Assembly: GCA_016748015.1 (NCBI GenBank)
Contig: JAAOMT010000245.1
Span: 19,941-83,940, forward strand
Length of the DNA: 64,000 bases
Source of the DNA: Geosiphon pyriformis uo1
Taxonomy: Eukaryota > Fungi > Glomeromycota
Direction: 5' to 3'
Each line of letters starts with the position of its first letter. Positions within the stretch are counted from its first letter, which is position 1. This document shows, piece after piece, positions 5,663 to 60,675 of the stretch. The notes below the pieces were generated by a model. The model did not search any database, was not told the DNA's origin, and saw nothing but the letters and a program-made list of their open reading frames with translations. The position numbers were made by a program, and so were the translations under genes.

Positions 5663-5692
5663 TTTAAATTTGTTGCTGTGTTATTTCCATGG

Positions 5693-5704
5693 GAGAGCAC
5701 CAAA
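5693..5704 (-). promoter_or_regulatory. Primer-binding site TTTGGTGCTCTC (tRNA 3'-end complementary)
   Basis: Directly follows LTR end GTAACA. TGG is complementary to tRNA CCA. The same motif follows the 5' LTRs at 57365-57374 and 59898-59909. Confidence 0.85.
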
Positions 5705-6685
5705 TGTTACTGGAGGTTTTTGGTCTCTTTTCTGTAATGTTGTTGATACTTATTTGCTGTGAATTCATGTTTTCTGGATGTGGTTGAACCTCTAGTAACT
5801 GAATTTATCTTCAAATTATTTCCTATAATTTGAACTTGTTGGGCTTATGAGTAGAATGGCCAATTCCGTGCCAGTTGCTTTATGTAGTTACGTTGTAGTA
5901 AATGTCAACTCTTTCCCAGGAATTGCTTGTCTGGAAGCTCACTAAAAATGTGTAGTTACTTTGCTGTGAAAGTTAACTCTTCTACAGGAATCTCATCTGT
6001 AGGTTACCCTAATGATTATAATAAGAAAATAAAAGAAAATAAAAGAAATATAAAAGAAATCGAATTTTGTCAAGAGAAATGTTTTTGATCCAGGCCTGGA
6101 GTCACTAACAGTTTTACTGAAATTGGTAGCTAATCAATTTCAAAACGTTAGTTGGGTTTTGGGAATTTTCCAAAGGCAATAATTAAAGAATTTGGTTTTT
6201 CAATTATTTGATATTTATTTGTTTTTGTGTGTATAAGAACGGTTTTTAAGAGATAAATCTAAAGTAAAATACATTTTCTCGAAAAGAGAAGCTCTTCTTT
6301 TATACAACTTGTCGTAATACTATTCTATGAACTTGAATTTTGCTATTTTCTACAATTTCGCTGAACTAAAGGTGCATTTTGGCGAACTACAAGTTATTTC
6401 TGCGAACTATTAGATATTTCGGTGAACTATCACTTATTTCGGCAAATTTCTATAAATTTCAGCGAACTTTTGAATGTTACATAGTTCGGGGTATTGCATG
6501 ATAGATCATCGCAATTAGGTTACATTTGTGTTGTGTACAATTTGGGTTATTAATTAAATGATAATTTCGGACATTCTTTGCTAATGTAATAAGTGATAAT
6601 TTGAAATGATAATATGTGTTAATTAATGATAGGAATTATAAGATAGTTTCATGCTAAATGATATCTCTAATTTCGTCTGGTAACA
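5705..6685 (-). repeat. 5' LTR of G1 (~981 bp)
   Basis: TGTTAC/GTAACA inverted termini; PBS adjacent; unrelated LTR sequence resumes at 6686. Confidence 0.85.
6357..6470. repeat. Six ~20-bp tandem units with core TTCGGCGAA in the U3 region of the G1 LTR
   Basis: Cores at 6357, 6378, 6398, 6418, 6438 and 6458. Confidence 0.85.
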
Positions 6686-7004
6686 ATGTCACAGATAGCC
6701 TAGTAAAAGACCCAGAAATAAGGGTAGAATTTTATATATTATCGGATAGCTTACTAGAAGGGCACAACTACCAGAATAAATCTGGTCTCCACACTGAGAA
6801 AGAAATTGAATGGAATTGTGATTCCGAAGACTATTACAATTACAATTGAATCTCTGTTTATTATACAAAGAACTCAATCCCAAAATCTTTAGATATCAAA
6901 ATCTTTAAATTACCAATACCAACATTAACAGAAACCAATAGCTTTTGAGCACCAAGTTATGGATTTGTTATTTATTTCCACACCAGAAATAATCACCTGT
7001 AATA
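6686..7004 (+). repeat. 3' part of an LTR related to the G2/G3 LTRs (solo or 3' LTR), interrupted by G1 and itself inserted in LINE A
   Basis: Reverse-complement similarity to 39863-40150 and 57375-57660. Ends CTGTAATA (decayed GTAACA) with no PBS after it; LINE endonuclease sequence follows. Confidence 0.85.
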
Positions 7005-18999: not shown

Positions 19000-20124
19000 T
19001 TACTATTATTACTTTTACCATTTTTGCTATTAAAAATACCAAGCTTATTTTTATATTCATGTTTTTAATCCAAAGCAATTTCAAATTAGAATAAACAAAG
19101 CTTGAAAATTGTGGCTATTTATTATAGTAAATTTTGCCAATTTGTTTTTAAATGTTTCTTTCATTTTGTAAAACTTGTATTTTTTTAATAAATTGTAATT
19201 AATATAATGCTTGATTATTACATAATTGTAATTTTAAATTATCTAAATATAATTATTTATTATTTATATAATACTTATTTGTTATATATATAAATTCTAT
19301 TGATTTATTATAACCAACTTAAATATTCAAATAAAAAAATATTATATAAATACAATAATTATAATTTATATAATATATTTTTTATTGTTGTATTTTTATA
19401 AAAAATTTTATTATTATTTTGTAAACTTTACATATTAAAAAAATTTCAAAATTAATTACAATTAATTAATTTTTTATGTTATAAACATTTAAAAATTATT
19501 TTTAAATTGATTAAAACTTTTAAACAAACTAATAGTTAAGTTAAAAATATATTAAATTTAAGTTTTTAAAAAAATAAAATGGTTTTCAATATTTATAATA
19601 GAAGTTATTTTAGTAGCCAAAAAAATATGATTAAATTTATTAAAAACATAATCTTTTTAACAATAAATTTTACAAATCAACAAAATTTTGTAATTTAAAT
19701 TTTAATAAGTTTAATCTAAATTTATATATTTTATTGGTAATAATATTAAAAAAATCAAAATTGTGTAACAACAAAAAAGCAATAATATTAATATAAGATA
19801 TTAAATTAATAATTTAATTTAAATATTAACAAAACTTAAAAAAAATTTTGACAAATTAAAATAAATAGTTTTATAATTAATAGCTAAGTAATTTAAAATT
19901 TAACATCTATAATAATATTAATATTTAAAAAAACCTAAAATATAAATTTTATACAAAAAACTTAATATATTAATAAAATTATATAAAAATTAAAATACAG
20001 TTTTAATATAAATTATTTTAATAAAAATTATTTTAATTTTAATAATTTTATTAAATATTAGAATAAAAATTATTTAATCAAAGAATTTTTGATAATTAAT
20101 AATTGTTTTTTAAATATTATTAAA
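19000..20124. other. AT desert between LRG1 and LINE B
   Basis: Extreme A/T bias, no credible ORF. Confidence 0.75.
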
Positions 20125-20270
20125 ACTAATGTTTTTTTATTTTTTTTTATTTGCTTTACAAGTGAGATCCAAACACTACCTAGTGCTATACATCAAAGAA
20201 ATGATCTAAACTAAGCATAAATCATGCACTTTCTACATGTGACCAGCCACTCAGACCAATCAGAACAATA

Positions 20271-34585: not shown

Positions 34586-37500
34586 CAGATCTTATTTGGA
34601 AAATAGCCATGTGCAATGTCAGGGGTATAAACAATGTGGTGAAGCAAGAAGATATTGTGCACTGACATAACTCTATGAACAATTTGGTTTCGATTTTTAC
34701 GGAAACGAAGCTCAAAGGGCATGCTCGTCTCTGGATAGCTGACAAATTCGATGGTGTTTGTGTGTTTGTCTCTGGTTTGGACTCTGGTCATCTTGGTTCT
34801 GGTGTGGCAATCATAATGAACAATTTTCTAGCCAAGCATGTGTGCAAAGTTTCTGAGATTTCCAGTCAACTTTTATCTGTCAAGTTGCTTTTTAAAAATA
34901 AACTTTCTGTGTCTGTGTTAGGGCTGTATGCTGGCACTTTTTTGGCTGTTCGTTTCTCCCAGGCCAGTGAAATCAATTCTTTTGTCACTAAGGCCATGAA
35001 TGATTTTTCTTTTGTCATTCTTGGTAGTGATTTCAATGAAAATGGTTCTCATAGGTGTGCTAGTTTCAAAAAGTGTTTTGACTTGGGCTTGATTAATGCT
35101 TTGGGTGGGAGTTTGTTTTCAAAATCACTTACATGGTGCAATTCTCGTGGTGTTGCTAAAATGATTGATTACATGTTCATCTCTTCTGGTTTGGTCAATG
35201 CAATTGTGGATCGCAGTGTGACAGATGTTGTGGAATTTTTCAATACTAATCATAAGGCTGTTTCCATTTCCATGGATTTGGGTGGCTTGTTGGACATGCA
35301 GCTTTCTGTTATGTGCAAACAGGCCAACAAAGATCATTGGAAATTTGATGTCAAAAGTGCTGATGTTTTGAAATGGGGCAAGTTTGGGGACATGTTAGTT
35401 GTCAATGCTTCTGTGTTTTTGAATGAATTTGCTGTGGCTAAGGATTGCTCGAATTTAGATTCAATGTGGGATGTCATTCATAGGATTATGGTTCTTTCTA
35501 CTAATAGAACATTCAAAAAAAAATGGTTTAAAGGTTATGATAGTGTTTTTACCAAAGTGTCTTCTAGGTTTTATAAGTTGGAGTTGCTGGTCTCCAAGTT
35601 AGTAAGAGCTTCTCATTTGGCATTTGGTGATGCCTTTGCATTACTGTTGGAGATGTGGAATAAGCTCAACCTGGTTAGTGTCTTAGCAACAAAATTGGTC
35701 TTTTTTTTAGGTGCTAATTTTGATGCTGTTCAGTCTGTGCTGGCTAAAGCAAGGAAATCTTATCACTTCTTCAAGCTTCTAAAATCCAAGCATGCAGAGG
35801 AGTCCCAGATCAGACAGGCTATTACCAGGCATATGGAAAGCTTTGCATTGGACAAAAGTCATACTATCAGGAGCATGTTAAAGTGTCTCTTTCGCAAGGT
35901 GGTGTTGGACCATCTGATAGTCAGTGATGAACTGGTCTTGGAGTCTGAGTTGGTGAAATCTAGAGTAGATGTGGTTATGGAGGGCTAAACACGGACACGT
36001 GGGGTGGTCTTTGATATGTCTGATGTTTGGATTTGTCAATATCAACCTTTGGATTACATCTTTGATGGCGCTTTTTCTGATGTTATGTGCTCAATCAGCT
36101 TTGATGAGATGTCTGCAGTTATTTCAGATTTACCTGATGAGAAGGTGGCTAGTCTCTTAGGTATTTCAAATGAATTGTGAAAGCACTGTGACAAGTCGGT
36201 TTTGGATATGCTGTGGTTCTTTTGAACTCTTGTTTGGTTTGTGAATTGGTTCCTGAACCTTAGAAGAAAGCTTGGGTTTCTATGATTCCTAAACCTTATG
36301 AATGGGAGGGTGTTCTCATGAATATCTGTTCTATTGCTTTAATTGAAACAGCCTGCAAGGTTCTGTCCAAGATCTTGTCAGATAGGATTTTTTTGGCTTG
36401 TAGCAAGTTTGACGTTTTACATGGGGACAATTTCTCAGTTTTGAAGGGTACAATAACACAGTCTCTGATCTTTGCTGTTGGTCTGTGATTGAGGATGCCT
36501 TGGAGAAGAACCGTGAACTATGGTTGGTTTTGCAGGACATGCACAAAGCCTATGATTCTGTTGGTTGGAAGCACCTTAGGAGGAGTTTGGTTAAGATCAA
36601 GATATGTGACAGTTTTATTAAGTTCTTTGGCTCTATCCACAATAGTCGCACTAACAGGGTGATGACAGATTTTGGTTTAACAGACAGATATCATGTGCAT
36701 AATGGCTTGGATCAAGGAGAAGTTTTCTCGCTGCTTTTGTGGCGCATATTTTATGATTTACTTCTTTGTAAGGTCAAGAGGCAGGAGGCTGTATGTAGCT
36801 ATAGATTAAATTCTTATTTTGTTTCCAAAACTGGCCAGGTGGAATTTCAAGCTGAACTGACATCATTTCTGGCCACCGGTGCTTTTGTGGATAATATGAT
36901 TTGGGTAGGCAATAGCCAGTCGGCTACTCAACACATTCTCAATGTTGCTAATGATTTCTTCAGAATTAATGACATTTCAATAAATAATGAGAAGACTGTG
37001 GCCATCCTTATTAACTGTTGGATGGCAAATCCTACTTTTTATATTAGTGACTTGCCTATCTCTGTTGCTAAAAAGAGGAAACTTCATCGTTATCTGGGAA
37101 TTTTTCTTTTTTCTAAAGGTTTGTTTAACCCTAGCTTGGTTAGGACACATTCAGATGTTCGGTTTTTTATTAATTTTGTCTTAAGAAAAGCAATTTCAGA
37201 TAAACAATTTGCATATTTAGTGTCAGCAGTTCTTGTTCCTATTGTCAGTTACAGGACTCAGTTCAGTTTTGTCTCTACTAGTGTATGCAACAAATAGGAT
37301 GCTCTCATTCGAAAGGGTTTGAAATCTAAGTCTGGTCTGCCTCTTAATTTTCCCAATAATACACTTTATTACCCTTCTTTATATGAGTTAAAAACATTCG
37401 AGCAGATTCAGGCTGAGTGTAAATCAGCTTCCATTGTTTCTTTTGCGAATTTGGTTGGTGTTTTGGGTTGGTTGTTTTCTCACAGATCCCACAATCTCCA

Positions 37501-37699
37501 GGTTTTCAGCTGGTGCCCGTGACATCCATTGCTATTTCCAATTCATATTAGGGTTGACTTTTCAAATAATTTTTTGGCTGGTGTGGTCTGTATTTTTTCA
37601 GATTTAGATTTGTCTTTGGGTGGCTTGGTAACCAGTGCTTTTTACCTTCAGTCTGGTACTCCTTTGTCTCTTGTGCTTGGTGATAAGATGTTTTTCAAA
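34582..37699 (+). pseudogene. LINE C ORF2 (endonuclease + RT), truncated
   Basis: MTDLIWKIAMCNVRG, ETKL, GSDFN, IDYMF, QDMHKAYDSV, GLDQGE, GAFVDNMIW. Confidence 0.9.
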
Positions 37700-39862: not shown

Positions 39863-40741
39863 TGTTATAAGTGATTATTTGAGATTTTAAATCAAATAAC
39901 AAACTTATAACTTGGTGCTTAATTAATATATTAATGATGTATATAATTTAATGGTTTTATCAGTCTGAAGGTTTTGGTTATAGTTCTTTGTATAATGGAC
40001 AGAAATAGTAGTTGTTTCTTGAAATTGCAATTTTTGCCCAATTTTTTTTTCAGCTTGGCAGCCAAATTTATTCTGACAATTATGCCTTTCTGATAAGCTA
40101 ATTGTTAATATATATAATTCTACCCTTATTTCTGGGTTTTTTACCAAACTATTCTTGATGTTAATAATTCAGTGCTTTAATCCTTAATCAATTAGTATAC
40201 AACAATAAAATCAAAGAAAAGAAAAGAAATAAAAAAAATAAAATAAAAAAAATAAAAGAAATAAGCCAAGGCAATTTGCAAATTAGTATCCCATCAATAG
40301 TTATAATCAAAAGCTATTGTTCTAGTGTAGTTAAGTATCAATTACTATTAACATAGAGTGTTGATAGTGGAAAGTGAATTTAAGATAGTAAATAATTATT
40401 TATTGATTAGAAAAGTTGCTTAGATTAAATCTAAACTGAGAGGTCTGTCTTTTCTACTTTTAATGCTACCATTATATATACATAATTAAAATTCCTTAAT
40501 TTCTCAATTTTTTATACCAGAAATTCTGGAATTCCTAAAATCCTGCAATTCTTTTGAGAGGAATCCTGGAATTCTAGAATTCTGCAATTTTTCACTCAAG
40601 AATCTTGAAATTTCTGGAATCCTACGATTCTTTTAAGAGAAATCCTGAAATTTCTGGAATCCTGGAATTCCACATTTACTATGTCTACCTCTGATTGGCT
40701 AATTTATATGCTAATATACTTTTTATATTCTATAAGTAACA
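39863..40741 (-). repeat. G2 3' LTR
   Basis: TGTTAT...GTAACA; preceded in element sense by a decayed PPT; near-identical to 59910-60675. Confidence 0.9.
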
Positions 40742-40754
40742 TTATTCTCTTATT

Positions 40755-41316
40755 TTAATATTGAGCTCTATCAAAATTTCCTAAATCTCCTAACTCTACT
40801 TCTCCATTTTTGAGTATTTCTTGAATTTCTTTTTTGAGAATTACTTGTGTTATCTTGTTCAAATTGGGCATTGGTTATTTTTTCCATTTGGTTAACAGTA
40901 ACAGTATTCATTTCTGTGTTGAGTAAAATTTCTGGTCAATCTTAAAATCTAGTATGTATCCAATAAATGGCTCTTGTTTGTGTGGTCAAATTGTTCTTTC
41001 CAATAAATTGTTTTAGTTGTTGCAGTATTGCTGTATCAAATAATTATTTTGTTTTATCCATATATAAATTTTGAATATTCAAGTGTTGTCTCAAATAAAA
41101 GTAACAAAAGTTTCTTGGAAATTGTTGTATCTACTAATTCTAAATTTCTATAGTTAACTCTTAGTATTGAGTAATTTTTGGTTGTGCTTCTATTGCCAAT
41201 TTCACTTTTGTGATTATTTTGTCAACAGTGTTTTCTGTTTTTCTCTGTACTTTATCCTGTGGTCTTTTTCTGGTGGTTGTGTATCTGATAGTTTTTTGAT
41301 TGATTGTGATTTTCAT
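40755..41316 (-). pseudogene. G2 ORF3 (unknown protein between integrase and PPT)
   Basis: Collinear with the G3 copy 49267-49839; most stops are complemented by the other copy; 11-bp deletion near the 3' end. Confidence 0.7.
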
Positions 41317-41442
41317 TTCTTGTTGTTGAATTAATTGGAAGAGTTATTGTGCTAATGAGTGAATATTGTCAGTAATTTCTATTTTTTTGATGTCTTTCAT
41401 TACATCTACTCTGTCTTTATATACTCTTTTTATTGTTCAATT

Positions 41443-44400
41443 TTATGTGTTTGTTTCAATGATTATGATTGGTTCCAGATCTCATGAAATCTCATCTGGT
41501 TAGACTAGTATTTGCTGTACTCTCAGTTGTGGAATATTATTCATAGATAATGATACTGTATGATAATATGGTTTTAGTCAATCACTATGTGCTGCTTTGG
41601 CCAAGATTTTGTTGTTTCATCTTAATTTATAAGCTTCATTTCCTAGAATTTCTTCTATGTAAAATGGTCTATCCCATTTGGAGTCGAATTTTCTACTTCA
41701 TTGTTTTTCTGCTTTGGTACAATGTAAAAGTATTTTGTCTCTAATCTTGAATTCAACTGGTTTATCTGGTAATTAGTTATTATGTTATTCTTTTTGTTTT
41801 TCTTGTAACTTTTGAATATTATTAGCTGCTCTTTGCCTTTTGTTTTCTAGTGTTTCTATTATGTCATATGTTCTTTTCAACAATGTTTCTTGAAAATTAT
41901 CTTCTGTTATTGGTTCAGTTGGATATGTGTTGACTTCTATCTCTACTGGTAATATTGCTGTTCTACTATACACTAATTCAAATGGTGTCACTTGTATAGT
42001 ATCTTGCTTCATTGTCTGATAAGCAAATAATACTAATAGTAAACAAATCCCATTTATCCTGGTTTTTTTGGCTGATCTTGGCAATTGCTTTACACAATGT
42101 TCTATTGAATCTTTCAATTAAGCCATTTGTTTATGGATGATATAATAATGATAATGGTCTTTTAATTCCAAATCTTTGACTTAATTCTGACAATGTTCTA
42201 TTTACAAAGTGAGTTCCTTGATCTAATAGTAATTTTTTTGAACATTCATGTTGACAAATCAAATCTTGATGGACAAATTTGGCAATGAATTCTGCATCTG
42301 TTCTTTGAATGGCTTTTGCTTCTGGCCATTTAGTGAGATAATCCATGACTACTGCAATATATTTGTTGTCTCTGCTAGTGATTGTTAATGGTTTGACTAA
42401 GTCAATTCCAATGTAATCAAATAGTTGTTCTATTCTGATTGGTTTTAATGGTTCAGTCAGTCTTGTTCCTTTTCTTCTTTGACAAGTATTACAATTCTAA
42501 ACATATTGAATGATATCTGAATATATTGATGGCCAATAGTATCTATTTTTGGTTCTTTTTATGGTTGCTTCTTTATGAAAATGTTCTGCTGTTGGGTCTG
42601 AGTGCATATTGAATAGTATTGTCTCTTTTTCTGGTTCTGTAACTACTCTGATTGGTTGATCTGAATTTCTTTTGTTTTTCTGATAAAATATATTTTGATG
42701 GTTAATAAAGTATTTTGATTGTTGTTTTATGTTGTTTCGTTTCTTTTGAGATAATTTTTTTTTAAACTGTTAAGTATTTATATAATGTTAAAATTGTTGA
42801 TATTTTTGTGTGTTCATTTTTTGTTATATATTTATGTTTTCAATTTGTTTGGATTTGTTATATTTTTGGGTTAAAATGCTCAGATTTGTTTCATTTATAA
42901 CAAATTATCAGCATTTTTATTTTTTTTTCCCTTTTTATAGTGTACTGTAAAAGTATATAGTAAAAGTACTATTTTTCATCTTGCATGTCAATCATCTCCA
43001 AATTCTTGCTTCTGGATTAAAGTCAATCCTTTGTGATCAGTGTGCATCTTAAATTTTTGGCTTAAGTATTTTTTTCATTTCATAACTGCCCAATAGATTG
43101 CTAAGTGTTCTAATATTGGTGTTTTATAATTTTTTTCAGCTGGAGTCAAACCTCAGCTGGTATATGTAACTGGATGTTTTCTTCCATTTGGTTCTCTCTG
43201 AGATAGTACTGCTCCTAATATTTAACCTAACACATATGTGGTGATAATGAATGGCTTACTATGATCTGAATATATCAACACTGGAGCTTAAATAAGCTTT
43301 TTTCTTAAAATGTCAAAAGCTTCTTGCTGAATTTCTGTCCATTTGTATTTTATATTCTTGGTTTGGAAATGGTTAAGTGGCTGAGCTATTTTAGAAAAGT
43401 CTTTAATGAAGTGATGATAATAGCCTGTGAATCCCAAGAATGATTTTAATTTGGTTAAGTTGGTTGGTACCAGAAATTTTTTTACTATCTTTATTTCTCT
43501 GAATTCATTTTGATTCTGTTTTTGCTCATTACATGTTCTAAGAATTTCAGTTCTGTTTTGCTAAAAAAACACTTAGTAGTATTTAACTTTAGTTCTGCTC
43601 ATCGTAGCCTTTCAAATACTTGCTGTAGATAATAGATGTAATTATTGAACATTCTTAAGAATACGTTGGTATTGTCCAAATACATGACTACTAATTTCCA
43701 TAGCAGTCTAGTATATACTATTTCCATTAGCCATTGAAATGTGGCTGGTGCTTTCATTAAGCTGAATGGCATGACTTCAAATTCAAAATTTCCCTCTTTT
43801 GTGGTAAATGCCATTTTCTCTTTGTTGGCTGAATTCATGGCTACTTGCTAGTAGTCACTATCTAAATTCAATGTTGAGAACCATTTCTTTTCTTTGAAAG
43901 CATCAAACAATTTCTGAATTCATGGAGTTGGGTAACTGTCTCCACAAATAACTCTATTGAGTTTTCTATAATCCACACAAAAGTGAATCTTTCCATTCTT
44001 TTTCTAAACTAGTACCACTGGTAATGACCATGGGCTTATTGATGGCTGAATTAGTCTGTTGTCAAGCATCCGATTGATTTCTTGACAAATGATTTCATGG
44101 CTGACTGGTAGTATCCAATATGCTCTTTGTTTAATTGGCATTGCATCTCCAGTCTTAATCTAATGCTGGATAATATCAGTTTGGCCAAATTTGTTTTTAC
44201 TTGCAAAGATGTCATTGAAGTTTTTAAGTAACATCTTGAGTTGCATATATTGAAATGAGTCTAAGTTTCCCATGTTTATTTGGTTCAATTGTGCTGATTG
44301 AAACAAGTAGCATTCATTTCATCCATATATTGTCTGTGATGTAATATTCACATATCCACACAGTTGTGGAAAATCCAAAATGGTGCTTGGTGGTTGCTCT

Positions 44401-47400
44401 TCAAGTTCCATGCTTAAGTATTCAATGATAATTCTTTTGAGTATTGTAATGACATCTCCTGTTGTATTGTGGATGAGAATTTTGATATGGTTATGATTCT
44501 TGGCTGATATGTAGAAATTAATGAGTCCAATTTCTCTTGATTCACAAATTGTTGCTTCTGTCTCAAAGATCTGGGCTTGGTTCTTCATTTTCCTTTCTAT
44601 TACTAACATGTACTAATCATATGGTGGAATGAAAATTGATTGATGGGTGGAGATAATTTCTTCCTTGTTAACAATTTCTTCCTCTGCCATATTGATTGGT
44701 ACATTGTTACCCAAGTAGAAAAACCAATCCAAAGTTATAAAGAAACATGACCAAAATGTGACATAACACAGAATAATACGCAATAATGTTGGATAACGCG
44801 TTATAATGTTGGATAACATGTTATAATGCAGGATAACACAGAATAGCATGCAATAACATAGGATAACACAGAATAACATGTAATAATGTCAGATAACGTG
44901 TTATAATATAGGATAACTAGCGATAACGTAGAAAAACAAAGCAATAACAGAAACAACAAAGCAATAGCTAGCGATAGCGAGACAATTGAAAGCAATCCTA
45001 TAAAACCAAAAGAATGTATAAAAGCAAGTAGTTGTAGAAGTGAGAAAAGACAGAAAAGAAAAAATAGATATGAACCTCTAAACCAGAAATTAAAATATTC
45101 ATATTCCTTCATTTTTTATTATCTTCCCTATTTCATCTCCTAAAATAAACCAATTATTAAAAGAAATCAGAATCACGAATTCATGTTCTCGAACTTCATG
45201 GAATTTACGTGAATTAACCCTTGTCTCGTACTTCCATTCTAGAACAGATGCTCTTAGCATAACTATCTCGAACCTATTAACGATTTGGACCAATCGCTCT
45301 TGATCATGGCAATTGACAATACTAATTTATCTTTTTTCTTTTTTCTTTTCTTTTCTTTTTCTTTTTTTTTCTTTTTCTGTCTTATTTTTTTGTGGAGCGG
45401 CAACATAGTAAAATTGACTGTCTGGGAATAAACTTCGTGATAGCCTGGTAAAAGAGGGAAGCTTCCCCTAAGTTTTGGATATTAACATTATCTTGTTAGC
45501 TTACCAGAAGGGCAAAAAGACAACGCCAGACCCTAACAACTGTACTCGTTAGCTCGGAGAAGAAAGCTCACATTTATGAAAAACGTTGCAATTGACAAAA
45601 AACAAACTCTCTGCCTTATAACCAAAGAACTCAATGGGTAAAATTCACATCCAGGAATAGACCTTTAGAAACTGATAATCAAGACTAAGCCAACAGAATT
45701 ACACAGAAGACGCATCATCAATAATTGAGAGCACCAAATGTTACCATTTCCCATACCCACCAAGTTTACCTGTAACAACGTTTATTCTATTTGTTGATTC
45801 AAATTTACTTATTTCTCTTGCTGTGATTTCTAATTCTTCTCTATTTCCCACTGAAATTAACTGAGCTACTTTAACCAAAGGTAAGAATATTGCCTGTATT
45901 ATCTTTTTATTTGGCTCTATGATATAAGTCTTTTCTGAGTTATTTTGTAGCATTGCAATAATATTTCCTATGTATTCTACATCAATTATCCCTCCTCTAA
46001 TATTGATTTCTTTTTTTGTTAAACTACTTTTAGAGACTAGTTGAATCATTGTTGTTGCTGGGATCTCTAATTCTATTTTTAAATCAATACATGTTTATGA
46101 ATGTGGTTCCAATTTTATGGCTTCTTTTCTGAAATATCTCAGATCAAACTCTGCATCTGTATCATGCACGCATTTTGACATGATATTTTCATCATTATCA
46201 CTGAATTATTTAAGTTCTTGCTTTTTGGTGAGATTGGGGAGTGCAATGTATTGTTCAAAGTTTGAATTTGAGTTTGAGTTATTGTCATTTTGGTTGTTAT
46301 ATTAGATAGAGCTAAAACCAGTGTTTTTGTTGTCATTGTTGTTGGAGTTTGAATTGGGATCGAAAATTGATTTCAATTCTGATGCACAGCTGCTGATTGG
46401 TTTTTTTTCTTTGGAGATTGTATAGATCATGTATGGTAGTAGATTGTAAATAAGGTCACAATTATCACAATATTCAAAATTACTGAGAATTAAACAGTGT
46501 TAGTATAGTCTGGTATTTAATTCTTTTAGCCATTGTTTTTGCTCTTCCCTAGTCAGTGCCAATTCCTGGTAATGTTTATAGAATTGCTCTGGGTCTATTG
46601 GCTTTAAGACAATATCTGAGTTTGGGCCCTAGTTAAGTTTTATTGGTTTGAATGAATTGTTTTTGATCACTCTGATCTCTTTGGATATCACTCCTTCGAT
46701 TTTTGTGAGTGCCATTCACCAAATTTTGTTGTTATTGTGTGGGCAACCATCCAGACATTTTACAGTTCTTCTTCAGGTGGCTTTTATTGGTGTTCCTTTT
46801 TTAACCTAGTTACTTATTAGAATCATGTATTGACACAATTTGTCACATGTTTCTCTTCACTCAAGAATGTTATTCCACATTTCTTTATCTAAAAAAGTTT
46901 TTTCACAAGCCAAGCATGGTTTATTATCCCATTTTTCAACTCATTTTGGTCTTCCAAAGTGTTCTAGGATGCATGGACAACAATAAAACTTAGTTGCCAT
47001 TTGGTATTCCTCATTATCACCACAGCATGCATCTATTGACAACAATTTTTTGCTGCAATTAATACATATGAGCTTTGGTCAGCAATAAGTGGATCATTGT
47101 GGTATAGTATAAGTGTAGGAGTTATAAGTGGTGATGTTGGTGAGTGTTGTTTCTTCTTCCTTCCCTTTTTGTTTTTCCTTATTGCTTTTTTCTCCCTCCC
47201 AAGTTATTGGTTTTTCTTGGTCATTATTATTTACTCAGGCTTGGTTAGAATTCCAGATAAGTTCTTCTTTTTGCTTTCATTTTCCAGTGTTATTCCAAGA
47301 GAGTATCAGTAATAGCTTATTGTGGTCTTGATTGGTCCATAAAACTTGATAAACTTCTCAGATAGGTTTTTTTTCTTTTTTTTTGAACTCGATGAGAGTT

Positions 47401-48446: not shown

Positions 48447-49253
48447 TGTTACAAGTGATTATTTGGGATCTTAAAACAAATAACAAACCCATAACTTGGT
48501 GCTCAATTGCTAATTCATGTATTAATATCTAAAGGTTTTGGTGTCTGAAGGTTTTTGGTTGAGTCCTTTGTATAATAGACAAAGATTCGATAATTGTTTT
48601 ATCCATTACTTCTTAAAACCACAGTTTCGTCAATTTTTTTCTTGGCATGATGGCCAGCAATTTTCTGGTAAGCTATTTTCAAATCTATGAGTGTTTATCC
48701 TTATTCCTAGGTCTTTTACCAGTGCTATATCCTGATGTCAGTACCTCTGTACATTTTTCTTTTAATTAATTAGTACACAACAATAAAATCAAAAAAGGAA
48801 AATAAAGAAAAAAAAGAAAGAAATAAAATAAATAAAGAAATAAGCCAATGCAATTGCAAGTTAGTATCCCATCAATAGTCATAATTAAGAGCTATTGTTC
48901 CAGTGTGATCAAGTATTAATTACTATTACCATGAAGTATTAATAACAAAGAGTAGATTTAAGATAGTGAATAATTATTTATTAATTAGGAAGGTTACTTA
49001 GATTAAATCTAAACTAAGAGATCTGTTTTTTCTACCTTTAATGCTACTGCTATATATACATAATTGAGATTTTTCAATTCCTTTGAGAAGAATCCTAAAA
49101 TTCTGCAATCCTGTGATTCCTCATATGAGAATTCTAAAATTCCTGAAATTCTGCAATTTCTCTGAGAAAAATTCTGAAATTCCATATTTACTATGCCTAC
49201 TTCTGATTGGCTAATCTATATGCTAATATATTTCTTATATTCTATGAGTAACA
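48447..49253 (-). repeat. G3 3' LTR
   Basis: TGTTAC...GTAACA; PPT adjacent at 49254-49268. Confidence 0.92.
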
Positions 49254-49266
49254 TTATTCCCTCCTT

Positions 49267-49935
49267 TTAATATTGAGCTCTATTGAGATCTCCTAAATCT
49301 CTTAACTCTAATTCTCCATTTTTGAATATTTCTTGACTTTTTTTTTCAAGAATTATTTGTGTTATCTTGTTCTGTAATTCTTCAAATTGGGCATTGGTTA
49401 TTTTTCCCATTTGGTTAACAGTAATGGTGTTCATTTCTGTATTGAGTAGAATTTCTGGTCTGTCTTAAAATCTTGTATGTAGCCAATAAATGGCTCTTGC
49501 TTGTGTGGTCAAATTGTTTTTCCTCACAAATTGTTCTAATTGTTGCAGTATTGTTGTGTTAAATAATTGTTTTGTCTTATCTGTGTATAACTTCTGAATA
49601 TTCAAGTGTTATCTCAAGTAAAAGTAACAAAAGTTTTTTGGAAATTGTTGTATCCACCAATTCCATATTTCTATAGTCAACTCTTGATATTGGGTGACTT
49701 TTGATTGTGTTTTTATCACCAATTTCACTTTTGTGATTATTTTGTTGACAGTGTTTTCTGTTTTTCTCTATACTTTATCTTATAGTCTTTTTCTGGTATT
49801 TGTGTATCTGATGGTTTGTTAATTGATTGTGATTTCCATTTCTTGTTATTGGATTAATTGAAAGAGTTGTTGTGCTAGTGAATGAATGTTGTCAGTAATT
49901 TCTATTTTTCTGATGTTTTTTGTTGCATCTACCAT
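49267..49935 (-). pseudogene. G3 ORF3 (unknown, ~190-220 aa, env position)
   Basis: One frame from ATG 49935/49839 to TAA 49267 abutting the PPT; internal stops are TAA/TAG, mostly at positions that are CAA/CAG in G2. Confidence 0.75.
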
Positions 49936-49966
49936 GTTTTTATATACTTTTTTTTATTGTTCAATT

Positions 49967-52900
49967 TTACATGTTTGGTTTAATGATTATAATTGGTTCT
50001 CGATCTTGTGGAATCTTATCTGGTTGGACTAATATCTGTTGTACTCCCAGTTATGAAATATTATTAGTGGATAATAATACTATATGGTAATATGGTTTCA
50101 GTTGATCACTATGTGCTGCTTTGGCCAAAATTTTGTTGTCCCATCTTAATTTATAAGCTCTATTTCTTAGAATTTCTTCTATGTGAAATGGTTTATTCTA
50201 TTTGGGGTTAAATTTCCACTTCATTGTTTTTCTGTTTTGGTACAATATAAAAGTACTTTGTTTCCAATCTTGAATTCAACTGGTTTATCTAATAGTTGGT
50301 TATTATGTCGTTTTTTTTGTTTTTTTTGTAACTTTTGAATGTTATCAACTGTTCTTTGCCATTTGTTTTCTAGTGTCTCCATTAAGTTATATGTTTTTCT
50401 TAGCAATGTTTTCTGAAAATTGTTTTTTGTTATTAGTTCTGTTGGATATGTATTGACTTTTATCTCAACTGGTAATGTTGTTGTTCTACTGTATACTAAT
50501 TCAAATGGTGTTGCTTGTGTAGTATCTTGCTTTATTGTCCAATAAACAAATAATACTAATGATCTAAACAAATTTCATTTGTCTTGATTTTTTTGACTAA
50601 TTTTGGCAATTGCTTCATACAATGTTCTATTGAATCTTTTAACTAAGCTATTGGTTTGTGGATGATATGGTGATAATAATGGTCTTTTGATTTCAAATCT
50701 TTGACTTAATTCTGTTAATGTTCTGTTCACAAAGTGGGTTCCTTGATCTGATAGTAATTTTTTTGGACATCCGTGTTGACAGATCAAATCTTGATAAACA
50801 AATTTGGCAATGAATTCTACATCTGCTCTTTAAATAGCTTTTGCTTCTGGCCATTTAGTAAGATAATTTATGGCTATTGCAATATATCTGTTGTCTCTGT
50901 TGGTAATTGTTAATGGTCTGACTAAGTCAATTCCAATGTGATCAAATAGTTGTTCTACTTTGATTGGTCTTAATGGTTTACCTGGTCTTGCTTCTTCTTT
51001 TCTTTGACAAGCATTACAATTTTGAACATATTGAATAATATCTGAATATATTGATGGTCAATAGTATTTTTTTCTGGTTCTTTCTATGGTTGCTTCTTTA
51101 TGAAAATGTCCTGCTGTTGGATCAGAGTGTATGTTGAATAATATTGTCTCTTTTTTTGATTCTGTGATTACTCTGATTGGTTAATCTGGATTTTTTCTGT
51201 TCTTCCAATATAGTATATTTTGATAAGTAATAAAATATTTGAATTGTTGTTTGATGTTGTTTTGTTTCTTTTGAGATAATTTCTTCTTGAACTGTTGGGT
51301 ATTTATATAATGCTGGAGTTGTTGATATTTTTGTGTATTTATCTTTTGTTATATTTTTGTTTTCAATTGTTTGGATTTTGTTATATTTTTGAATTAAAAT
51401 GCTCAGATTTGTTTCATTTACAACAGACTGTCAATATTTCTATTTTCTTTTTCCTTTTTATAGTACACTATAAAAGTATATGGTGAGAGTGCTATTTTCT
51501 ATCTTGCATGTCAATCATCTCCAAATTTTTGCTTCTGGATTAAAGTCAATCCTCTGTGATCAGTATGCACCTCAAATTTTTGGCTTAAGTATTCTATTTC
51601 ATGGCTGCCCAATAAATTGCTAAGTGTTCTAGTGCTAGTGTTTTATAGTTTTTTTCAGCTGGTATTAAGCTTTAACTGGTGTATACTACTGGATGTTTTC
51701 TTTCATCTGGTCATTTTTGTAATAATACTGCTCCTAATGCTTGGCCAGATGCATCAGTAGTGATGATAAATGGTTTGCTATGATTTGGATAGATTAATAC
51801 TGGGGTCTAAATAAGTTTTGTTTTCAGTATATTAAAAGCTTTTTGCTGAGTTTCAGTCCATTTGTATTTGGTGTTTTTTATCTGAAGTTGATATAGTGGT
51901 TGAGCTATTTTGGAAAAGTTTTTGATAAAGTGACAGTAGTATCTAGCTAATCCCAAGAATGCTCTTAATTCTGTGAGATTATTTGATACTAGAAAGTTCT
52001 TAATAATCTTAATCTTATCTGGATCTGTTTTGATTCCATTTTTACTCACAACATATCCCAAAAATTTGAGTTCAGTTTTCCCAAAAAAGCATTTGGTGGC
52101 ATTTAGCTTCAATTCAGCTCTTTTTAATCTTTTGAATACTTGTTGAAAATGGTGTAGATGATCATTGAATATCTTAGAGAATATATTAGTGTTGTCTAAA
52201 TATACAACTATTGATTTTCATAACAATCCAGTATAGACAATTTCTATAAGCCATTGGAATATTGTTGGTATATTCATCAAGCCAAATAGCATTACTTCAA
52301 ACTCAAAATTTTCTTCTCGAGTTGTAAAAGCCATTTTCTCTTTATCTTCTGGTTTCATGGCTACCTGCCAGTAACCACTGTCTAAGTTTAAAGTTGAAAA
52401 TTATTTCTTTCCTCCAAAGGCATCAAACAGTTCTTGGATCTTTGGAGTTGGGTTGCTGTCTTTCTTGGTTACTCTATTAAGTTTCTGGTAATCCACACAA
52501 AAACGGATTTTCTCATTTTTCTTATGGACTAATACTACTGGTAATGACCATGGGCTCATAGATGGCTGAATTAGTCCGTTGTCAAGCATCTGATTGATTT
52601 CTTAATGAATGATCTTATGGCTGGCTGGTAATACTCAATATGCTCTTTGTTTGATTGGCATTGTATCTCCAGTCTTAATTTGGTACTGAATTATGTCCAT
52701 TCTGCCAAACTCATTTTCACTTGCAAAAATGTTGGTAAAGTTGTTGAGTAACATTTTGAGTTCTATATGCTGGAGTGGGTCTAAGTTTCTCAGATTTATC
52801 TGTTTTAACTGTTTTGATTGAAGCAAATAACATTTATTTTGTTTATAAATTGTTTGTGATGTTATATCAACATATCTACACAGTTATAGAAAGTCTGAAA

Positions 52901-55900
52901 TGGAGTTTGGTGGTTGGTTCTCAATTTCAGTAATTAAGTATCTAATAATGGTTTTTTCTGGTATTTCCATGATATTTTCTATATTGTTGTAAATAAGAAT
53001 TTTGATGTAATGGTGGAATGAAAATTGATTGACAGATGGAGGTAATTTTTCATTTGTCAACAACTTCTTTCTCTGTCATATTAATTAGTATATCTATTCT
53101 ACTTGTGAATCCAAATTCACTTATTCTTCTTGCTGTGATCCCTAATTCTTCCCTATTTCCTACTGAAACTAACTGAGCTACTTTAACCAAAGGTAAAAAT
53201 ATTGTCTGTGCAATCTTTTCATTTGGCTCTATGATATAGACTTTTTCTGAGTCATTTTGTAGCATTGCAATAATATTTCTTACATATCCTGCATTAATTA
53301 TTCCTCCTCTGATGTTGATTCCTTTTTTTGCTAAACTACTCCTAGATGCTAGTTGAATCATGGTGGTCACTGAAATTTCCAGTGCTATTTTAAAATCAAT
53401 GCAAGTGAATGTGGTTCCAATTTGATGACATTTTTTCCTGAATACCTCAGATCAAACCTTGCATTGGTATCATGTGCATGTTCTGGCATGATATCTTCAT
53501 CATTATTACTGAACCATTTTAGTTCTTGCTTCTTAGTAAGATCAGGGAGTGCAATAAATGTTTTAGAATTTAAATCAGAGTCCGAATCATTGTTATTTTC
53601 ATTGTCATATTGAACAGAGCTGGAACTGGTGTTTTCATTGTCATCATTGTCGGAGTTTGAATTGGGATCAAAAATTGATTCTGATTCTAATATGCAGCTG
53701 CTGATTGGTTTTTCCTCTTTTGGGATCATGTAGATCATGTGTGGTGGTGAATTATAAATAAGGTCACACTCATTACAATATTGAAAGTCACATGGAATCA
53801 AACAGTAGTCACATAATCAAGTGTTTATTTCTTCCAAACATTGTTTTTGTTCTTCTCTGGTGGGTGCTAGGTTCTGATAGTGTTCATGAAATTCTTTTGG
53901 GTCCGTTTCAATGTTTAGGAAAGCATTTGAATTGGAAATTAACACAACATTAATTGGTTCAAATGGGTTATTTTTGATCTCTAAGATTTCTTTGGGTGAA
54001 GTGTCTTTGACTTTGGCATTTGCCATTTGCCAGATCTCATTCTCATCATGTGGGTAACCATCCAAGTGAGAGATTACTTGGTGCCATGTGACAGTAATAG
54101 GTGTGCTACAACTAATTCAGTTGCTTATGAAGATTATATACTGACATAAAGTATTACATATTTCTCCTTGTCCAGAAATGTTATTCCATATTCTTTCATC
54201 CAGTAGTTGTTCACCACAAGTAAGACATGGTTTGTTGTTTCACTTGCCTTGTTTTTTAGGATAACCATAGCATTTAGGGTGGCATGATTTGTAGCAATAA
54301 TAAGTTTATGTCTAGTAATTTTCATCTGGCACTACTCAGGCTCCCATGGAGGACAGTTTTTTTTTGCAGTCTTTGCACCTGAGGAAAATATAAGGTGGTT
54401 CTGGCCTGGTATTCATGGAGTATGAACTTCTCCAACTGCTAGTTTCCATGTTGTCATTGGTCTTTTCAGATATGTCTTTTTCCTTTTTTTTCTCTTTCCC
54501 TTTGTCTTTTTCTTCCCAGTCTAGAATTGGTGGTAGCTCATTGTGGTCTTCATTAGCCCATGAAACTTAATAAGCTTCCCAGGTAAGTTTTTTTCTTTCT
54601 TTCTTGAATTCAATAAGTGGTGCTGCCATGGTGGTGTTTTTGAAGTGATCACATGTGGCTGGTACATGTGTGTGTTGACTGTTCTGGCTCAGTTAGAGCT
54701 TCTGCATGTTTTAGTTGAATGTTATGTTGATTTTGGACAACTAGTTATTGCCAACAAGTGCTTGATACTGAGTGGCTTTCATGATTAATATCTTGATTGG
54801 TACAATAATGCCATTAACTTCTATGGGGAGATTATCAATTTTGCCAATTGGAGTTTTGGTCACTCTATTGGCCATTATGATTTTGGTGCTGGCAGTGTAA
54901 TCAACTCAGCAATCTAATTGGTTTATGAATTGTTATGTGATAATGCTGTCTGTTGACTCATTATCTAATATGAATTTGATGGAATGGCCATCAACTTTAG
55001 CATTAGTGTACATAGTAGTGATTGGTTTTTCTTTGAGCACAGCTCCACTGAACAAAAATGTGGATGACAGTTCTTCGAGTTTAAATGAAAAGATTGCTGC
55101 CAATGATTTATTGTTGGTGACAGTGGCTGGAGATATGTTGCTGGTGAGTGTTTGTGTTTGGTTGGTTTCTATGTTGTTGGATGTGGCATTTTCTGGGATA
55201 ACTAGGAGACTTAAATAGTTCTGAGAACTCAGGTTTTGGTTATACCCAGTTCTTGAATTCCACTGGCATGATCCTGATGGCTAGTTGGATGAATTAGGAA
55301 TCAGTTGGTAAACAACCATCACTAATCTCCAGTTTTGAATGACTTTTGATCTAGAATTTCCTGATGTTATTTAAACTGAGTTTGTTGTGAGAATTTGAGG
55401 TTAATATATTATTTGTGGCTGTAGTTGATAGATAGATTGTGGCTGCAGCTGATAAATTACAGGTGCTGGAGGCTGATAGATTGATGGTAAGTAGATTTGC
55501 TGTGGCATTAGTGGGTAATGGGGTTGATAGTGGTTCTGATTTGAGTGGTAATTTGAAGTTTGAAATCAGCAATTGGGGTTTTGATATTTATTTCCTGATT
55601 GTTAATTATTAATTCTAATATAGCAGTTAATTCTAATGTGCCCTTGTTTACCACAATTGTGGCAAATATGCATCTCTTGCTACCATAATGATTGTGTTGT
55701 CATAAAATGTGACTGATGTTGTTGCTGCTCAATGGTTCTGAGATTGTTGCAATGTTGTGGTGGTTAATATATGGTTTGATTATTGTTAGCTAAGTAACTC
55801 TTTAGTTTCTAATTAATTGAATTACTGAATTGTTTCAATTTAGAATCCAATTCAGATGATTTGTTCATTACTAAATTGATAGTTTGGGCATAGTTTGCTT

Positions 55901-57312: not shown

Positions 57313-57374
57313 TTTTGGATGATTGTTGTTGGTGCTGGTTCTCTTTAAAATTATACCTCACAAGGAGCACCAAA

Positions 57375-58196
57375 TGTTACAGATGATTATTTGGGGTCTT
57401 GAAACAAATAACAAACCCATAACTTGGTGCTTAATTGCTGATTTGTGTATTAATATCTAAAAATTTTGGTGTCTGAAGGTTTTTGGTTGAGTTTTTTGTA
57501 TAATGAACAGAGATTTGATAATTGTTTTATCCGTCACTTCCCGAAACTGCAGTTTTATTATTTTTTTTCTTGGCATGGTGGCTGGCAATCTTTTGATAAG
57601 CTATCCTTAAATCTATGAGTGTTTACCCTTATTTCTGGGTTTTTTACCAGTGCTATATTCTGATGTCAGTATCTTTGTGCATTCTTCTTTTAATCAATTA
57701 GTACACAACAATAAAATCAAAAAAAAAATAAAGAAAAAAAAGAAAAAAAGAAAATAAATAAAAAAATAGGCCAATGCAATTACAAGTTAGTATTCCATTA
57801 ATAGCTGTGATTAAGAGCTATTGTTCTAGTGTGGTCAAGTATTAATTACTATTAACATGAAATATTGATAGCAGAAAGTGGATTTAAGATAGTGAATAAT
57901 TATTTATTAATTGGGAAGATTGCTTAGATTAAATTTAAACTGAGAGATCTGTCTTTTTTACCTCTAATACTACTGCTATATATACATAATTGAAATTCCT
58001 CAATTCCTCGATTCCTGCAATTCCTTTAAGAAGAATTCTGGAATTCTGGAATTCTGCGATTCCTTATATGAGAATCCTGAAATTTCTAGAATTCTGCAAT
58101 TTCTCTAAGAGGAATTCTGGAATTCCATATTTACTATGCTTACTTTTGATTGGCTAATCTATATGCTAATATATTTTTTATATTCTATGAGTAACA
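57375..58196 (-). repeat. G3 5' LTR
   Basis: TGTTAC...GTAACA; PBS adjacent; in element sense CCAAT box (AGCCAATC) near the 5' end and a TATATA box. Confidence 0.92.
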
Positions 58197-59846: not shown

Positions 59847-59909
59847 TTTTGGAATGGTTGTTGCTAGTGCTGGTTTTCTGTAGGATTATACCTTACAGAG
59901 AGCACCAAA

Positions 59910-60675
59910 TGTTACAGGTAATTATTTAGGGTCTCAAATCAAATAACAAACTCGTAACTTAGTGCTTAATTAATATATTAATGATATATGTAATTTGATG
60001 GTTTTATCAGTCTGAAGGTTTTGGTTGTAGTTTTTTGTATAATAGACAGAGATTCAGTAGAAATAGTAGTTGTTTCCTGAAATTGCAATTCTTGCCCAAT
60101 TTCTTTCTCAGCTTGGCAGCCAGATTTATTCTGGCAGTTATGCCCTTCTGATAAGCTAATTGTTAATATATATAATTCTACTCTTATTTCTGGGTTTTTT
60201 ATCAGACTATCTTTAATGTCAATAATTCAGTGCTTTAATTCTCAATCAATTAGTATACAACAATAAAATCAAAGAAAAAAAAAAATAAGGAAAAAAAAAT
60301 AAAAAAAATAAGTCAAGGCAATTCGCAAGTTAGTATTCTGTCAATAGCTATGATTAAAAGCTATTGTTCCAGTGTGGTTAAGTATCAATTACTATCAACA
60401 TAAAGTGTTAATAGTAAAAAGTGAATTTGAGATAATAAATAATTATTTATTGATTAAAAAAATTGCTTAGATTAAATCTAAACTGAGAAGTCTGTCTTTT
60501 TTACTTCTAATACTACTGCTATATATACATAATTGAGATTTCTTGATTCCTCAATTTTTCACACCAAAAATTTTGGAATTTCTCTAAGAGGAATCCTAAT
60601 ATTTTACATTTACTATGTCTATCTCTGATTGGCTAATTTATATGCTAATATACTTCCTATATTCTATGAGTAACA
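59910..60675 (-). repeat. G2 5' LTR
   Basis: TGTTAC...GTAACA; PBS adjacent; matches 39863-40741. Confidence 0.92.

What the first reader, a model, noticed from the sequence alone, without database searches (positions are those of the whole stretch)
45727..45777. U5 'anti-PBS': a tRNA-3'-end mimic able to fold onto the LTR-end/PBS junction in all LTR types
Seen: the solo LTR has GAGAGCACCAAATGTTAC (45727-45744), the exact 18-nt reverse complement of GTAACA+TTTGGTGCTCTC, which is the LTR end plus PBS as seen in G1 and G2. G2/G3-type LTRs have GAGCACCAAGTTA(C) about 45 nt before the end (48492-48504, 57420-57432, 59954-59967; also 6947-6959), pairing with a 2-nt bulge around an inner TTATTTG/CAAATAA stem. 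G1 has AGAG-ACCAAA (5719-5728) only 14 nt from the end. The spacing differs while the complementarity is kept. Known: Tf1-group elements self-prime with an LTR segment complementary to the PBS, and retroviral U5-PBS stems regulate initiation. Inference: either self-priming derived from a tRNA-type PBS, or a switch that occludes the PBS from tRNA or 3' tRNA fragments until Gag remodels it.
Basis: partly seen in the sequence, partly recalled or inferred. Interest (0 to 1): 0.8.

Follow-up and report, generated by a model that had tools for sequence, protein, structure and literature searches.

The report
Retrotransposon hairpin masking its primer site
Two related types of jumping-gene end in a soil fungus carry a short copy of a tRNA end that is predicted to fold over the start site of reverse transcription, likely a retrovirus-style brake on tRNA priming rather than self-priming, and the third type in the window lacks it.

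Summary
Real, but narrower than claimed. The window holds decayed Geosiphon pyriformis Ty3/gypsy elements. Six of seven LTR copies (the solo LTR and five G2/G3-type) carry an arm complementary to the LTR end and the first 8-10 PBS bases, beyond chance. G1 does not: its AGAG-ACCAAA match is at chance level, and its real structure is a 13-bp stem on the LTR end alone. The 'exact 18-mer' is partly copy-specific, because the solo family has a CpG there. Solo and G2/G3 LTRs are homologous, so the arm needs only one origin. Tf1-type self-priming is unlikely: the arm lies 560-710 nt downstream of the predicted TATA and AATAAA, the PBS keeps tRNA register beyond the arm's reach, and no chromodomain was found. 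Best reading: tRNA priming, with a U5 hairpin that covers the CCA-pairing half of the PBS until a chaperone opens it, as shown for HTLV-1. Function, host tRNA, RNA ends and covariation across families are untested; covariation among five copies was not above its control. The scan noted tRNA-end mimics in an LTR of another genome before (e1-9503628).

The parts
44705..45777 (+). Solo LTR, 1073 bp, inserted in G2 pol; high-copy family
   Evidence: TG..CA ends, near 4-bp TSD, homology to G2/G3 LTR; 1754 contigs laid on its last 261 nt
45727..45744 (+). U5 arm of the solo LTR: 12 nt against spacer + first 10 PBS bases, then 5-6 nt against the LTR end; CpG in the family at 45739-45740
45017..45024 (+). 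Predicted TATA box of the solo LTR, 710 nt upstream of the arm
   Evidence: only TATAWAWR in this LTR; block aligns with G2/G3 TATA block; distance
45144..45149 (+). AATAAA 127 nt after the TATA box (predicted poly(A) signal; a second lies at about 45427)
59910..60675 (-). G2 5' LTR; TATA-like box 60520-60527, AATAAA about 60451
59954..59967 (-). U5 arm in G2 5' LTR (decayed)
59890..59907 (-). G2 PBS, tRNA-type, after a 2-nt TT spacer
39907..39920 (-).
57419..57432 (-). U5 arm in G3 5' LTR (57375-58196)
57355..57372 (-). G3 PBS; its complement equals the 3' 14 nt (before CCA) of 21 tRNA genes with CAT anticodon in viral contigs
48491..48504 (-). U5 arm in G3 3' LTR (48447-49253)
6947..6960 (+). 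U5 arm in a G2/G3-type LTR remnant (6686-7004) cut by the G1 insertion
5705..6685 (-). G1 5' LTR, a separate LTR type; TATA box 6297-6304, AATAAA about 6219
5787..5799 (-). G1 upstream arm pairing with the last bases of the LTR (5706-5718): 12 of 13 pairs here, 13 of 13 in most of the family; leaves the PBS outside
   Evidence: 0/300 shuffles, pair probability 0.95-0.99 for core pairs; 5793 T>C in 92% of depth
5719..5728 (-). G1 AGAG-ACCAAA: chance-level match, not an anti-PBS
5685..5702 (-). G1 PBS, same first 10 nt as G2, different distal half, CpG at 5688-5689 in the family

Best explanation
These Geosiphon Ty3/gypsy elements likely prime reverse transcription with a host tRNA, and in the solo and G2/G3 LTR types a U5 arm is predicted to fold over the LTR end and the first 8-10 PBS bases, where it would act as a kinetic brake until Gag or a helicase opens it. 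Shown in sequence: the arm, its complementarity, the CA-TT-TGG junction, the tRNA register of the PBS, and the order TATA, AATAAA, T-rich tract, arm. Predicted by folding: a long hairpin made of an inner stem, a stem on the LTR end, an unpaired terminal A and a PBS helix. Inferred: that the RNA starts about 30 nt after the TATA box and ends near AATAAA (so the arm is in U5 and present only at the 5' end), that the primer is an Ile(UAU)- or Met(CAU)-type tRNA, and that the hairpin delays primer loading until packaging. The part shared by all three LTR types is only the stem on the LTR end (U5-IR-like).
For: Arm in 6 of 7 LTR copies, beyond shuffles in the last 150 nt; 41 of 42 unrelated contigs that hold the same 16-nt junction by chance reach only -6.6 to -12.7 kcal/mol against -19.9 for the solo LTR (one had too little flank). 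Among five G2/G3-type copies the arm core is invariant in 10 of 11 columns against 138 of 324 overall; the stems inside the LTR are paired in 96.5% of 85 cells while the loop varies. The arm survives in solo and G2/G3 LTRs whose last 60 nt do not otherwise align. All three PBS complements read as 7-nt acceptor strand + T-stem strand starting at C61 after a pyrimidine (numbering from general tRNA knowledge). G3's equals the commonest 3' end (21 of 99 matching tRNA calls in 120 loci) among viral tRNA genes with that T arm; the G1-type T arm gives Ile(TAT) in 10 of 11 calls from 14 loci. Loose ends behind the solo LTR give a noisy consensus (39 contigs, agreement 0.45) that matches the G2 leader at 14 of the first 18 places, 6 of 6 at places 13-18 beyond the arm (compared by eye). 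Opening the PBS costs about 17 kcal/mol in G2 and G3, 6.9 in G1, against -33 to -36 for an 18-bp primer duplex (no shuffle control, tRNA unfolding ignored). Both 3' LTRs are preceded by AA, mirroring TT after the 5' LTR. HTLV-1 precedent.
Against: No compensatory change above control: 1 pair of 17, reached by 403/500 shuffles. G1, whose family gave the deeper contig pile and which shares the first 10 PBS bases, has no such arm, so the brake is dispensable. Solo and G2/G3 LTRs are homologous, so this is one origin, not convergence. G2's hairpin alone is not unusual (z -1.53, 12/200; G3 z -2.74, 2/200). The matching tRNAs are from viral contigs, not the host; none has exactly the G1 or G2 acceptor strand. 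The PBS patterns searched were built from the PBS itself. No RNA data. TATA and AATAAA are motif matches in AT-rich DNA; G2-type LTRs hold further matches. All copies are decayed, almost only by transitions (83 of 85 and 94 of 98 differences between LTR pairs), which G-U pairs absorb and which inflates apparent stem conservation.
Confidence: 0.55

Rival explanations
1. Relic or by-product: a reverse-transcription slip once copied the primer/LTR-end junction into U5 in inverted form; only the stem on the LTR end (or nothing) is selected and the PBS-pairing part is inherited baggage.
For: The solo arm reads exactly like the primer-cDNA junction; one origin suffices; G1 does without it; no covariation; an earlier scan note found tRNA-end copies in another LTR to be mostly units of an unstable repeat (not checked here).
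Against: The arm core is one of the best kept blocks among five copies and persists across LTR types whose neighbouring sequence no longer aligns, with different loop and bulge.
Confidence: 0.25
2. Tf1-type self-priming: the RNA starts at the arm, its first 10-12 nt pair with the PBS and are cut off at the junction to serve as primer.
For: Arm length and the continuation into a stem on the LTR end resemble the Tf1 central and inner duplexes; in both types the helix breaks at the LTR's last A, where a cut would fall; the solo arm would pass the 10-bp rule used to predict self-primers (PMC6317226); Tf2 uses alternative start sites (PMC5341516); a conserved ATTATACAAA block about 70 nt upstream of the G2/G3 arm could be a promoter element.
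Against: R and U5 would have to fit in 39-48 nt; the conserved TATA and AATAAA lie 500-760 nt upstream and no TATAWAWR lies in the 177 nt before the solo arm; the PBS keeps tRNA register past the arm; no chromodomain in G2, G3 or three long relatives; G1 has the same PBS start and no arm.
Confidence: 0.08
3. 3'-end priming or circularisation: R is long, the transcript ends at or just after the arm in the 3' LTR, and this tRNA-like end pairs with the PBS to close the genome into a circle or to prime minus-strand synthesis itself.
For: The arm ends in CCA followed by AA that could pair with the TT spacer; end-to-end pairing is needed in Ty1 and Ty3 (PMC4974528); poly(A) sites are unmapped here.
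Against: AATAAA sits 76-127 nt after the TATA box in all three types, which points to a short R; local folding would trap the arm only in the 5' copy; G1 lacks it; the PBS has full tRNA register.
Confidence: 0.07
4. Shield against 3' tRNA fragments: the hairpin hides the PBS from small RNAs.
For: The PBS is the target of 3' tRFs in mammals (PMC7472051).
Against: The arm covers the CCA-pairing half; the distal half, which a fragment's 5' seed would read (inferred from tRF geometry, recalled), is cheaper to open (6.8-7.5 against 11-12 kcal/mol). No evidence here on tRFs in this fungus.
Confidence: 0.05

Closest known systems
HTLV-1 PBS stem-loop (PMC13366004; abstract and passages)
   Same: tRNA-type PBS buried in a hairpin of about 10 bp that must be opened before annealing.
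   Different: Shown by probing there, only predicted here; a fungal Ty3/gypsy element, not a retrovirus; here the helix runs on over the LTR end.
Retroviral U5-IR and U5-PBS stems (RSV, HIV-1; titles seen in reference lists, detail recalled)
   Same: U5 sequence pairs with the LTR end next to the PBS; G1's 13-bp stem is of this kind; CA-TT-TGG and AA-TG junctions.
   Different: The solo and G2/G3 arms extend over 8-10 PBS bases; a U5-leader stem was only suggestive here (27/200, 39/200).
Tf1/Tf2/Tj1/Tcn1/sushi self-priming 'pretzel' (10.1101/2022.12.06.519325, PMC7175516, PMC4600332; passages)
   Same: LTR segment of about 11 nt complementary to the PBS, followed by a duplex with the PBS-adjacent LTR end.
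   Different: There the segment is the RNA's 5' end and the elements are chromoviruses; here it is predicted deep in U5, the PBS is tRNA-like, and no chromodomain was found.
dUTPase-bearing fungal Ty3/gypsy elements (Tmt1, PosPlaTy3-5; PMC2864245, passages)
   Same: dUTPase between protease and RT.
   Different: No relationship tested; nearest Gag relatives are Geosiphon and Ambispora.

Membership tests
Tf1/sushi self-priming group | LTR segment of 10 nt or more complementary to the PBS | tested here: met
   12 nt in the solo LTR; 9-10 in G2/G3; not in G1
Tf1/sushi self-priming group | That segment is the 5' end of the RNA | tested here: inconclusive
   No RNA reads. Motifs put the start 560-710 nt upstream, which argues against
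Tf1/sushi self-priming group | PBS not complementary to a tRNA | tested here: not met
   TGG start, tRNA register over 17-18 nt, exact match of G3 to real tRNA 3' ends; host tRNA itself not seen
Tf1/sushi self-priming group | Three-duplex pretzel with both side duplexes from LTR sequence downstream of the self-primer | tested here: inconclusive
   Inner duplex present; no significant third duplex, and the best leader partner in the folds lies upstream of the arm
Tf1/sushi self-priming group | Chromodomain at the integrase C-terminus | tested here: not met
   No Chromo hit at E up to 1 in six frames after G2/G3 integrase or in 3 long relatives; copies are decayed, G1 integrase lies outside the window
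Tf1/sushi self-priming group | RT groups with fungal/vertebrate chromoviruses | not tested
   No named chromovirus references were available; no tree built
Tf1/sushi self-priming group | RT/RNase H cleaves the primer free | not testable with these tools
   needs biochemistry
Ty3/gypsy LTR retrotransposon, tRNA-primed | gag-PR-RT-RNase H-IN order between TG..CA LTRs with TSD and PPT | tested here: met
Ty3/gypsy LTR retrotransposon, tRNA-primed | PBS matches the 3' end of a host tRNA | tested here: inconclusive
   tRNA-like by register and by viral tRNA genes; no host genome, no tRNA gene in the window
Retrovirus-type PBS-occluding U5 hairpin | PBS bases paired with U5 in the free leader RNA | tested here: inconclusive
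   Predicted at probability 0.9 or more for G2 and G3; no probing
Retrovirus-type PBS-occluding U5 hairpin | Pairing kept by compensatory change | tested here: inconclusive
   Five close copies only; not above shuffles; no related families with LTRs obtained
Retrovirus-type PBS-occluding U5 hairpin | Hairpin stability controls primer annealing | not testable with these tools
   needs annealing assays

The most novel reading that the evidence does not exclude
The arm is a working primer: a non-chromovirus Ty3/gypsy lineage that kept a tRNA-type PBS has evolved its own tRNA-end mimic and primes from it, either from a second start site at the arm or from the 3' end of its own RNA. That would be an independent origin of self-priming caught midway from tRNA priming, with G1 as the tRNA-only sister.
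Probability: 0.12. Interest if true: 0.8.

Novelty: new variant of a known kind. Interest (0 to 1): 0.35.

Why it matters
If the brake reading holds, control of primer loading by a PBS-masking U5 hairpin, known from retroviruses such as HTLV-1, extends to a fungal Ty3/gypsy lineage that fills much of the Geosiphon genome (41.2% LTR sequence, PMC11952901). It also warns that an LTR-PBS complement is not by itself evidence of self-priming, and it shows a ready starting point from which self-priming could evolve. Sister families with and without the arm in one genome make the question testable.

Tried and rejected
No host genome is held, so no genome-wide LTR survey or host tRNA scan. No RNA holder listed; X2 and X3 gave 1 and 0 contigs per stretch, nothing usable on RNA ends. 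Related loci: none in viral contigs by Gag or RT; the Gag alignment had no searchable conserved stretch; the one metagenome scan, by a junction pattern, gave 4 loci, none related to these elements, although RT relatives of 66-75% identity from metagenome sources exist, so an RT query might have served better; 42 viral hits of a 16-nt junction were unrelated and served only as a chance control; 17 RT-bearing contigs in prokaryote assemblies were distant elements, of which 2 with LTR pairs were viewed by eye and not tested. G1 anti-PBS rejected (29-141/300; 109/400). A second G1 candidate about 217 nt before the LTR end pairs with the distal PBS in one fold at 0.9 but is not above shuffles (72/300 and 57/300). 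A U5-leader stem from the conserved ATTATAC block appears in G2 and G3 folds but is not significant (27/200, 39/200; 114/200 for solo against the G2 leader); my notebook entry 2 overstates it. The bacterial promoter scan is not applicable and was ignored. The Atlas gave no usable hit for the extra ORF. Literature searches showed no paper on a PBS-complementary U5 arm in tRNA-primed Ty3/gypsy elements or on PBS types in Glomeromycotina; the library lacks most subscription papers, and no supplements were opened, including those of PMC6317226 and PMC11952901, which may bear on this.

Full report
Setting. The G1 Gag ORF is identical over 300 aa to a Geosiphon pyriformis protein, and all 120 listed of 352 hits are from that fungus; relatives at about 39% include Ambispora gerdemannii. 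Self-comparison and Pfam give three minus-strand Ty3/gypsy elements with gag, protease, dUTPase, RT, RNase H and (G2, G3) integrase. G3 (48447-58196) is nested in G2 (39863-60675); the solo LTR (44705-45777, + strand) sits in G2 pol; G1's LTR (5705-6685) interrupts a + strand G2/G3-type LTR remnant. Target duplications are 4 bp and decayed. LTR pairs differ almost only by transitions (83 of 85, 94 of 98).

Observation. The solo LTR's 45727-45744 is the exact reverse complement of the G1/G2 LTR-end/PBS junction. With the last 150 nt of each LTR as target, shuffles matched the duplex in 0, 0, 0, 3, 5 and 8 of 400 for solo, remnant, G3 3', G2 5', G2 3' and G3 5', and in 109 of 400 for G1; against whole LTRs the G2/G3 figures are 2-16 of 150. 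With the PBS part alone, G2 5' is weak (12/300 and 29/300). Unrelated contigs that hold the same 16-nt junction by chance reach at best -12.7 kcal/mol (41 of 42 tested), which overlaps G1 (-11.0) and G2 5' (-10.6) but not solo (-19.9), remnant (-16.3) or G3 3' (-15.9).

What the families show. Contigs of one DNA run were laid on two stretches; they show variation per place, not linkage, and the run may be the window's own sample. On the solo LTR end (1754 contigs) 45739 reads C in 60% and 45740 A in 46% of depth: a decaying CpG. The perfect 18-mer is therefore this copy's state; the founder likely had 12 pairs, a mismatch opposite the LTR's last A, then 5 pairs. The G2/G3 fold also leaves that A unpaired. 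Eleven variant rows were cut from that table, so silence elsewhere in the arm is not proof of constancy. Loose ends behind 45777 (39 contigs, agreement 0.45) match the G2 leader at 14 of 18 places and at 6 of 6 beyond the arm's reach (by eye), so the solo family has a G2-like PBS longer than its arm. On G1 (2059 contigs) there is no variant at 4% or more and no indel at 5713-5731: AGAG-ACCAAA is the family state, not a broken longer arm. 5793 reads C in 92%, which completes a 13-bp stem between 5787-5799 and the LTR end; the two common variants in it (5712, 5795; 36% and 40%) would give G-U pairs. This stem beats 300 of 300 shuffles and dominates the fold, while AGAG-ACCAAA pairs with the PBS at 0.05 or less. 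The two are mutually exclusive (-11.5 against -8.2 kcal/mol for this copy).

How many origins. Solo and G2/G3 LTRs align in two blocks (62-70%; TATA block), but their last 60 nt do not align except for the arm and the end. G1's LTR shares only a T-rich tract. So there are two LTR lineages, one with the arm and one without. Among five G2/G3-type copies the arm core is invariant in 10 of 11 columns against 138 of 324. The 17 pairs inside the LTR hold in 96.5% of 85 cells, against 36-55% when slid, but compensatory change is not above shuffles (1 pair; 403/500).

The PBS is tRNA-type. Each LTR end is followed by TT and TGG, and both 3' LTRs are preceded by AA. The three PBS complements fall in tRNA register: CCA, A73, a 7-nt acceptor strand, then a 5-nt T-stem strand starting with C after a pyrimidine (sequence; numbering from general knowledge). 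A T-arm pattern built on the G3 PBS found 120 viral loci of about 160; of 99 tRNA calls that hold it, 45 have a CAT anticodon and 21 end in exactly G3's 14 nt. These look like phage tRNAs, so they show shape, not the host primer. The G1-type T arm gave Ile(TAT) in 10 of 11 calls from 14 loci, none with G1's exact acceptor strand. The G2/G3 differences in the PBS are all transitions and may be decay. The host tRNA remains unidentified.

Where the RNA likely starts and ends. All three types carry a TATA-like box 600-761 nt before the LTR end and AATAAA 76-127 nt after it, then a T-rich tract; this is the usual LTR order (PMC3601003, section 9). It puts the arm 560-710 nt into the RNA, in U5. In Tf1 the primer is the first 11 nt of the RNA (PMC7175516, passages) and the side duplexes come from LTR sequence downstream of it (10.1101/2022.12.06.519325, passages). 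An internal arm cut the same way would leave a 39-48-nt strong-stop product that does not reach R (inference). No chromodomain was found. Against this: the motifs are predictions in AT-rich DNA, Tf2 has alternative starts (PMC5341516, passages), and the longest invariant run in G2/G3 U5 (ATTATACAAA) has no assigned role.

Mechanism. In the contiguous G2 and G3 leaders the first PBS bases pair with the arm at 0.9 or more in three window sizes. Opening 18 PBS bases costs about 17 kcal/mol (G1: 6.9), a full primer duplex yields -33 to -36, so annealing stays favourable and the hairpin would be a kinetic barrier at the bases that the tRNA's free CCA end would bind first (inference). HTLV-1 has its PBS in a 10-bp hairpin that needs Gag, RPL7 and DDX21 to open (PMC13366004, abstract and passages). 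G1's Gag has a weak zinc-knuckle hit (E 5e-4); G2/G3 Gag was not examined for one. I give this reading 0.55, an unselected relic 0.25, Tf1-type priming 0.08, 3'-end priming or circularisation 0.07 and a tRF shield 0.05.

Papers. Seen as passages only: PMC6317226, PMC4600332, PMC11181671, PMC3185550, PMC7472051, PMC4974528, PMC2864245, PMC11952901, PMC5371799 and those cited above; no whole text and no supplement was read. Lin and Levin 1998 and the HIV-1 U5-PBS papers were seen as titles in reference lists; RSV and HIV-1 stem details are recalled. Eight searches showed no report of this feature in tRNA-primed Ty3/gypsy elements, within an open-access library. One earlier scan note (e1-9503628) describes tRNA-end copies in an LTR of another genome; it was not checked and is not support.

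Verdict. A real, conserved U5 arm in one of two LTR lineages; not universal, probably not a self-primer, most like a retroviral PBS-masking hairpin. New variant of a known kind, function unproven; interest 0.35.

Noticed in passing
window 49255-50000 and 40742-41500 (minus strand): After integrase, G2 and G3 share a further decayed reading frame of roughly 250 codons running up to the PPT; no Pfam family and no Atlas hit for a related piece.
   Followed up: partly
window about 60030-60050, 57495-57515, 45605-45630: Conserved U5 block (TCTG..TTATA..CAAA), the longest invariant run in G2/G3 U5 and present in the solo LTR; 7 nt of it complement the leader just after the PBS, but not above shuffles.
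   Followed up: partly
window 5787-5799 with 5706-5718: G1 family has a 13-bp stem on the LTR end with a loop of about 68 nt; common variants keep G-U pairs.
   Followed up: yes
window 44701-44704/45778-45781, 48443-48446/58197-58200, 39859-39862/60676-60679: Target duplications are 4 bp with an alternating purine-pyrimidine pattern.
   Followed up: partly
window 44743-44961: Array of 10-bp units in the predicted U3 of the solo LTR; G2/G3 U3 has a variable-length repeat at the same place.
   Followed up: no
window 59892-59897 and 57357-57362 (minus strand): The distal PBS of G2 and G3 reads GTAAGG / GTGAGG, like a 5' splice site; an alternative reason for its conservation.
   Followed up: no
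window 1259-2524, 53008-53412, 45777-46217: dUTPase between protease and RT in all three elements.
   Followed up: partly
window 7019-11787, 19902-24758, 34771-37626: Three decayed copies (about 68% alike) of another retroelement with RT and RNase H hits, probably non-LTR type.
   Followed up: no
whole window: LTR pairs differ almost only by C/T and A/G changes; CpG observed/expected 0.32, pointing to methylation-driven decay.
   Followed up: partly
L188:3224-3511 and 9685-9972: A near-intact gypsy element with 99% identical LTRs inside a bacterial MAG contig, likely eukaryotic contamination; its LTR holds a short T-loop-like stretch.
   Followed up: no
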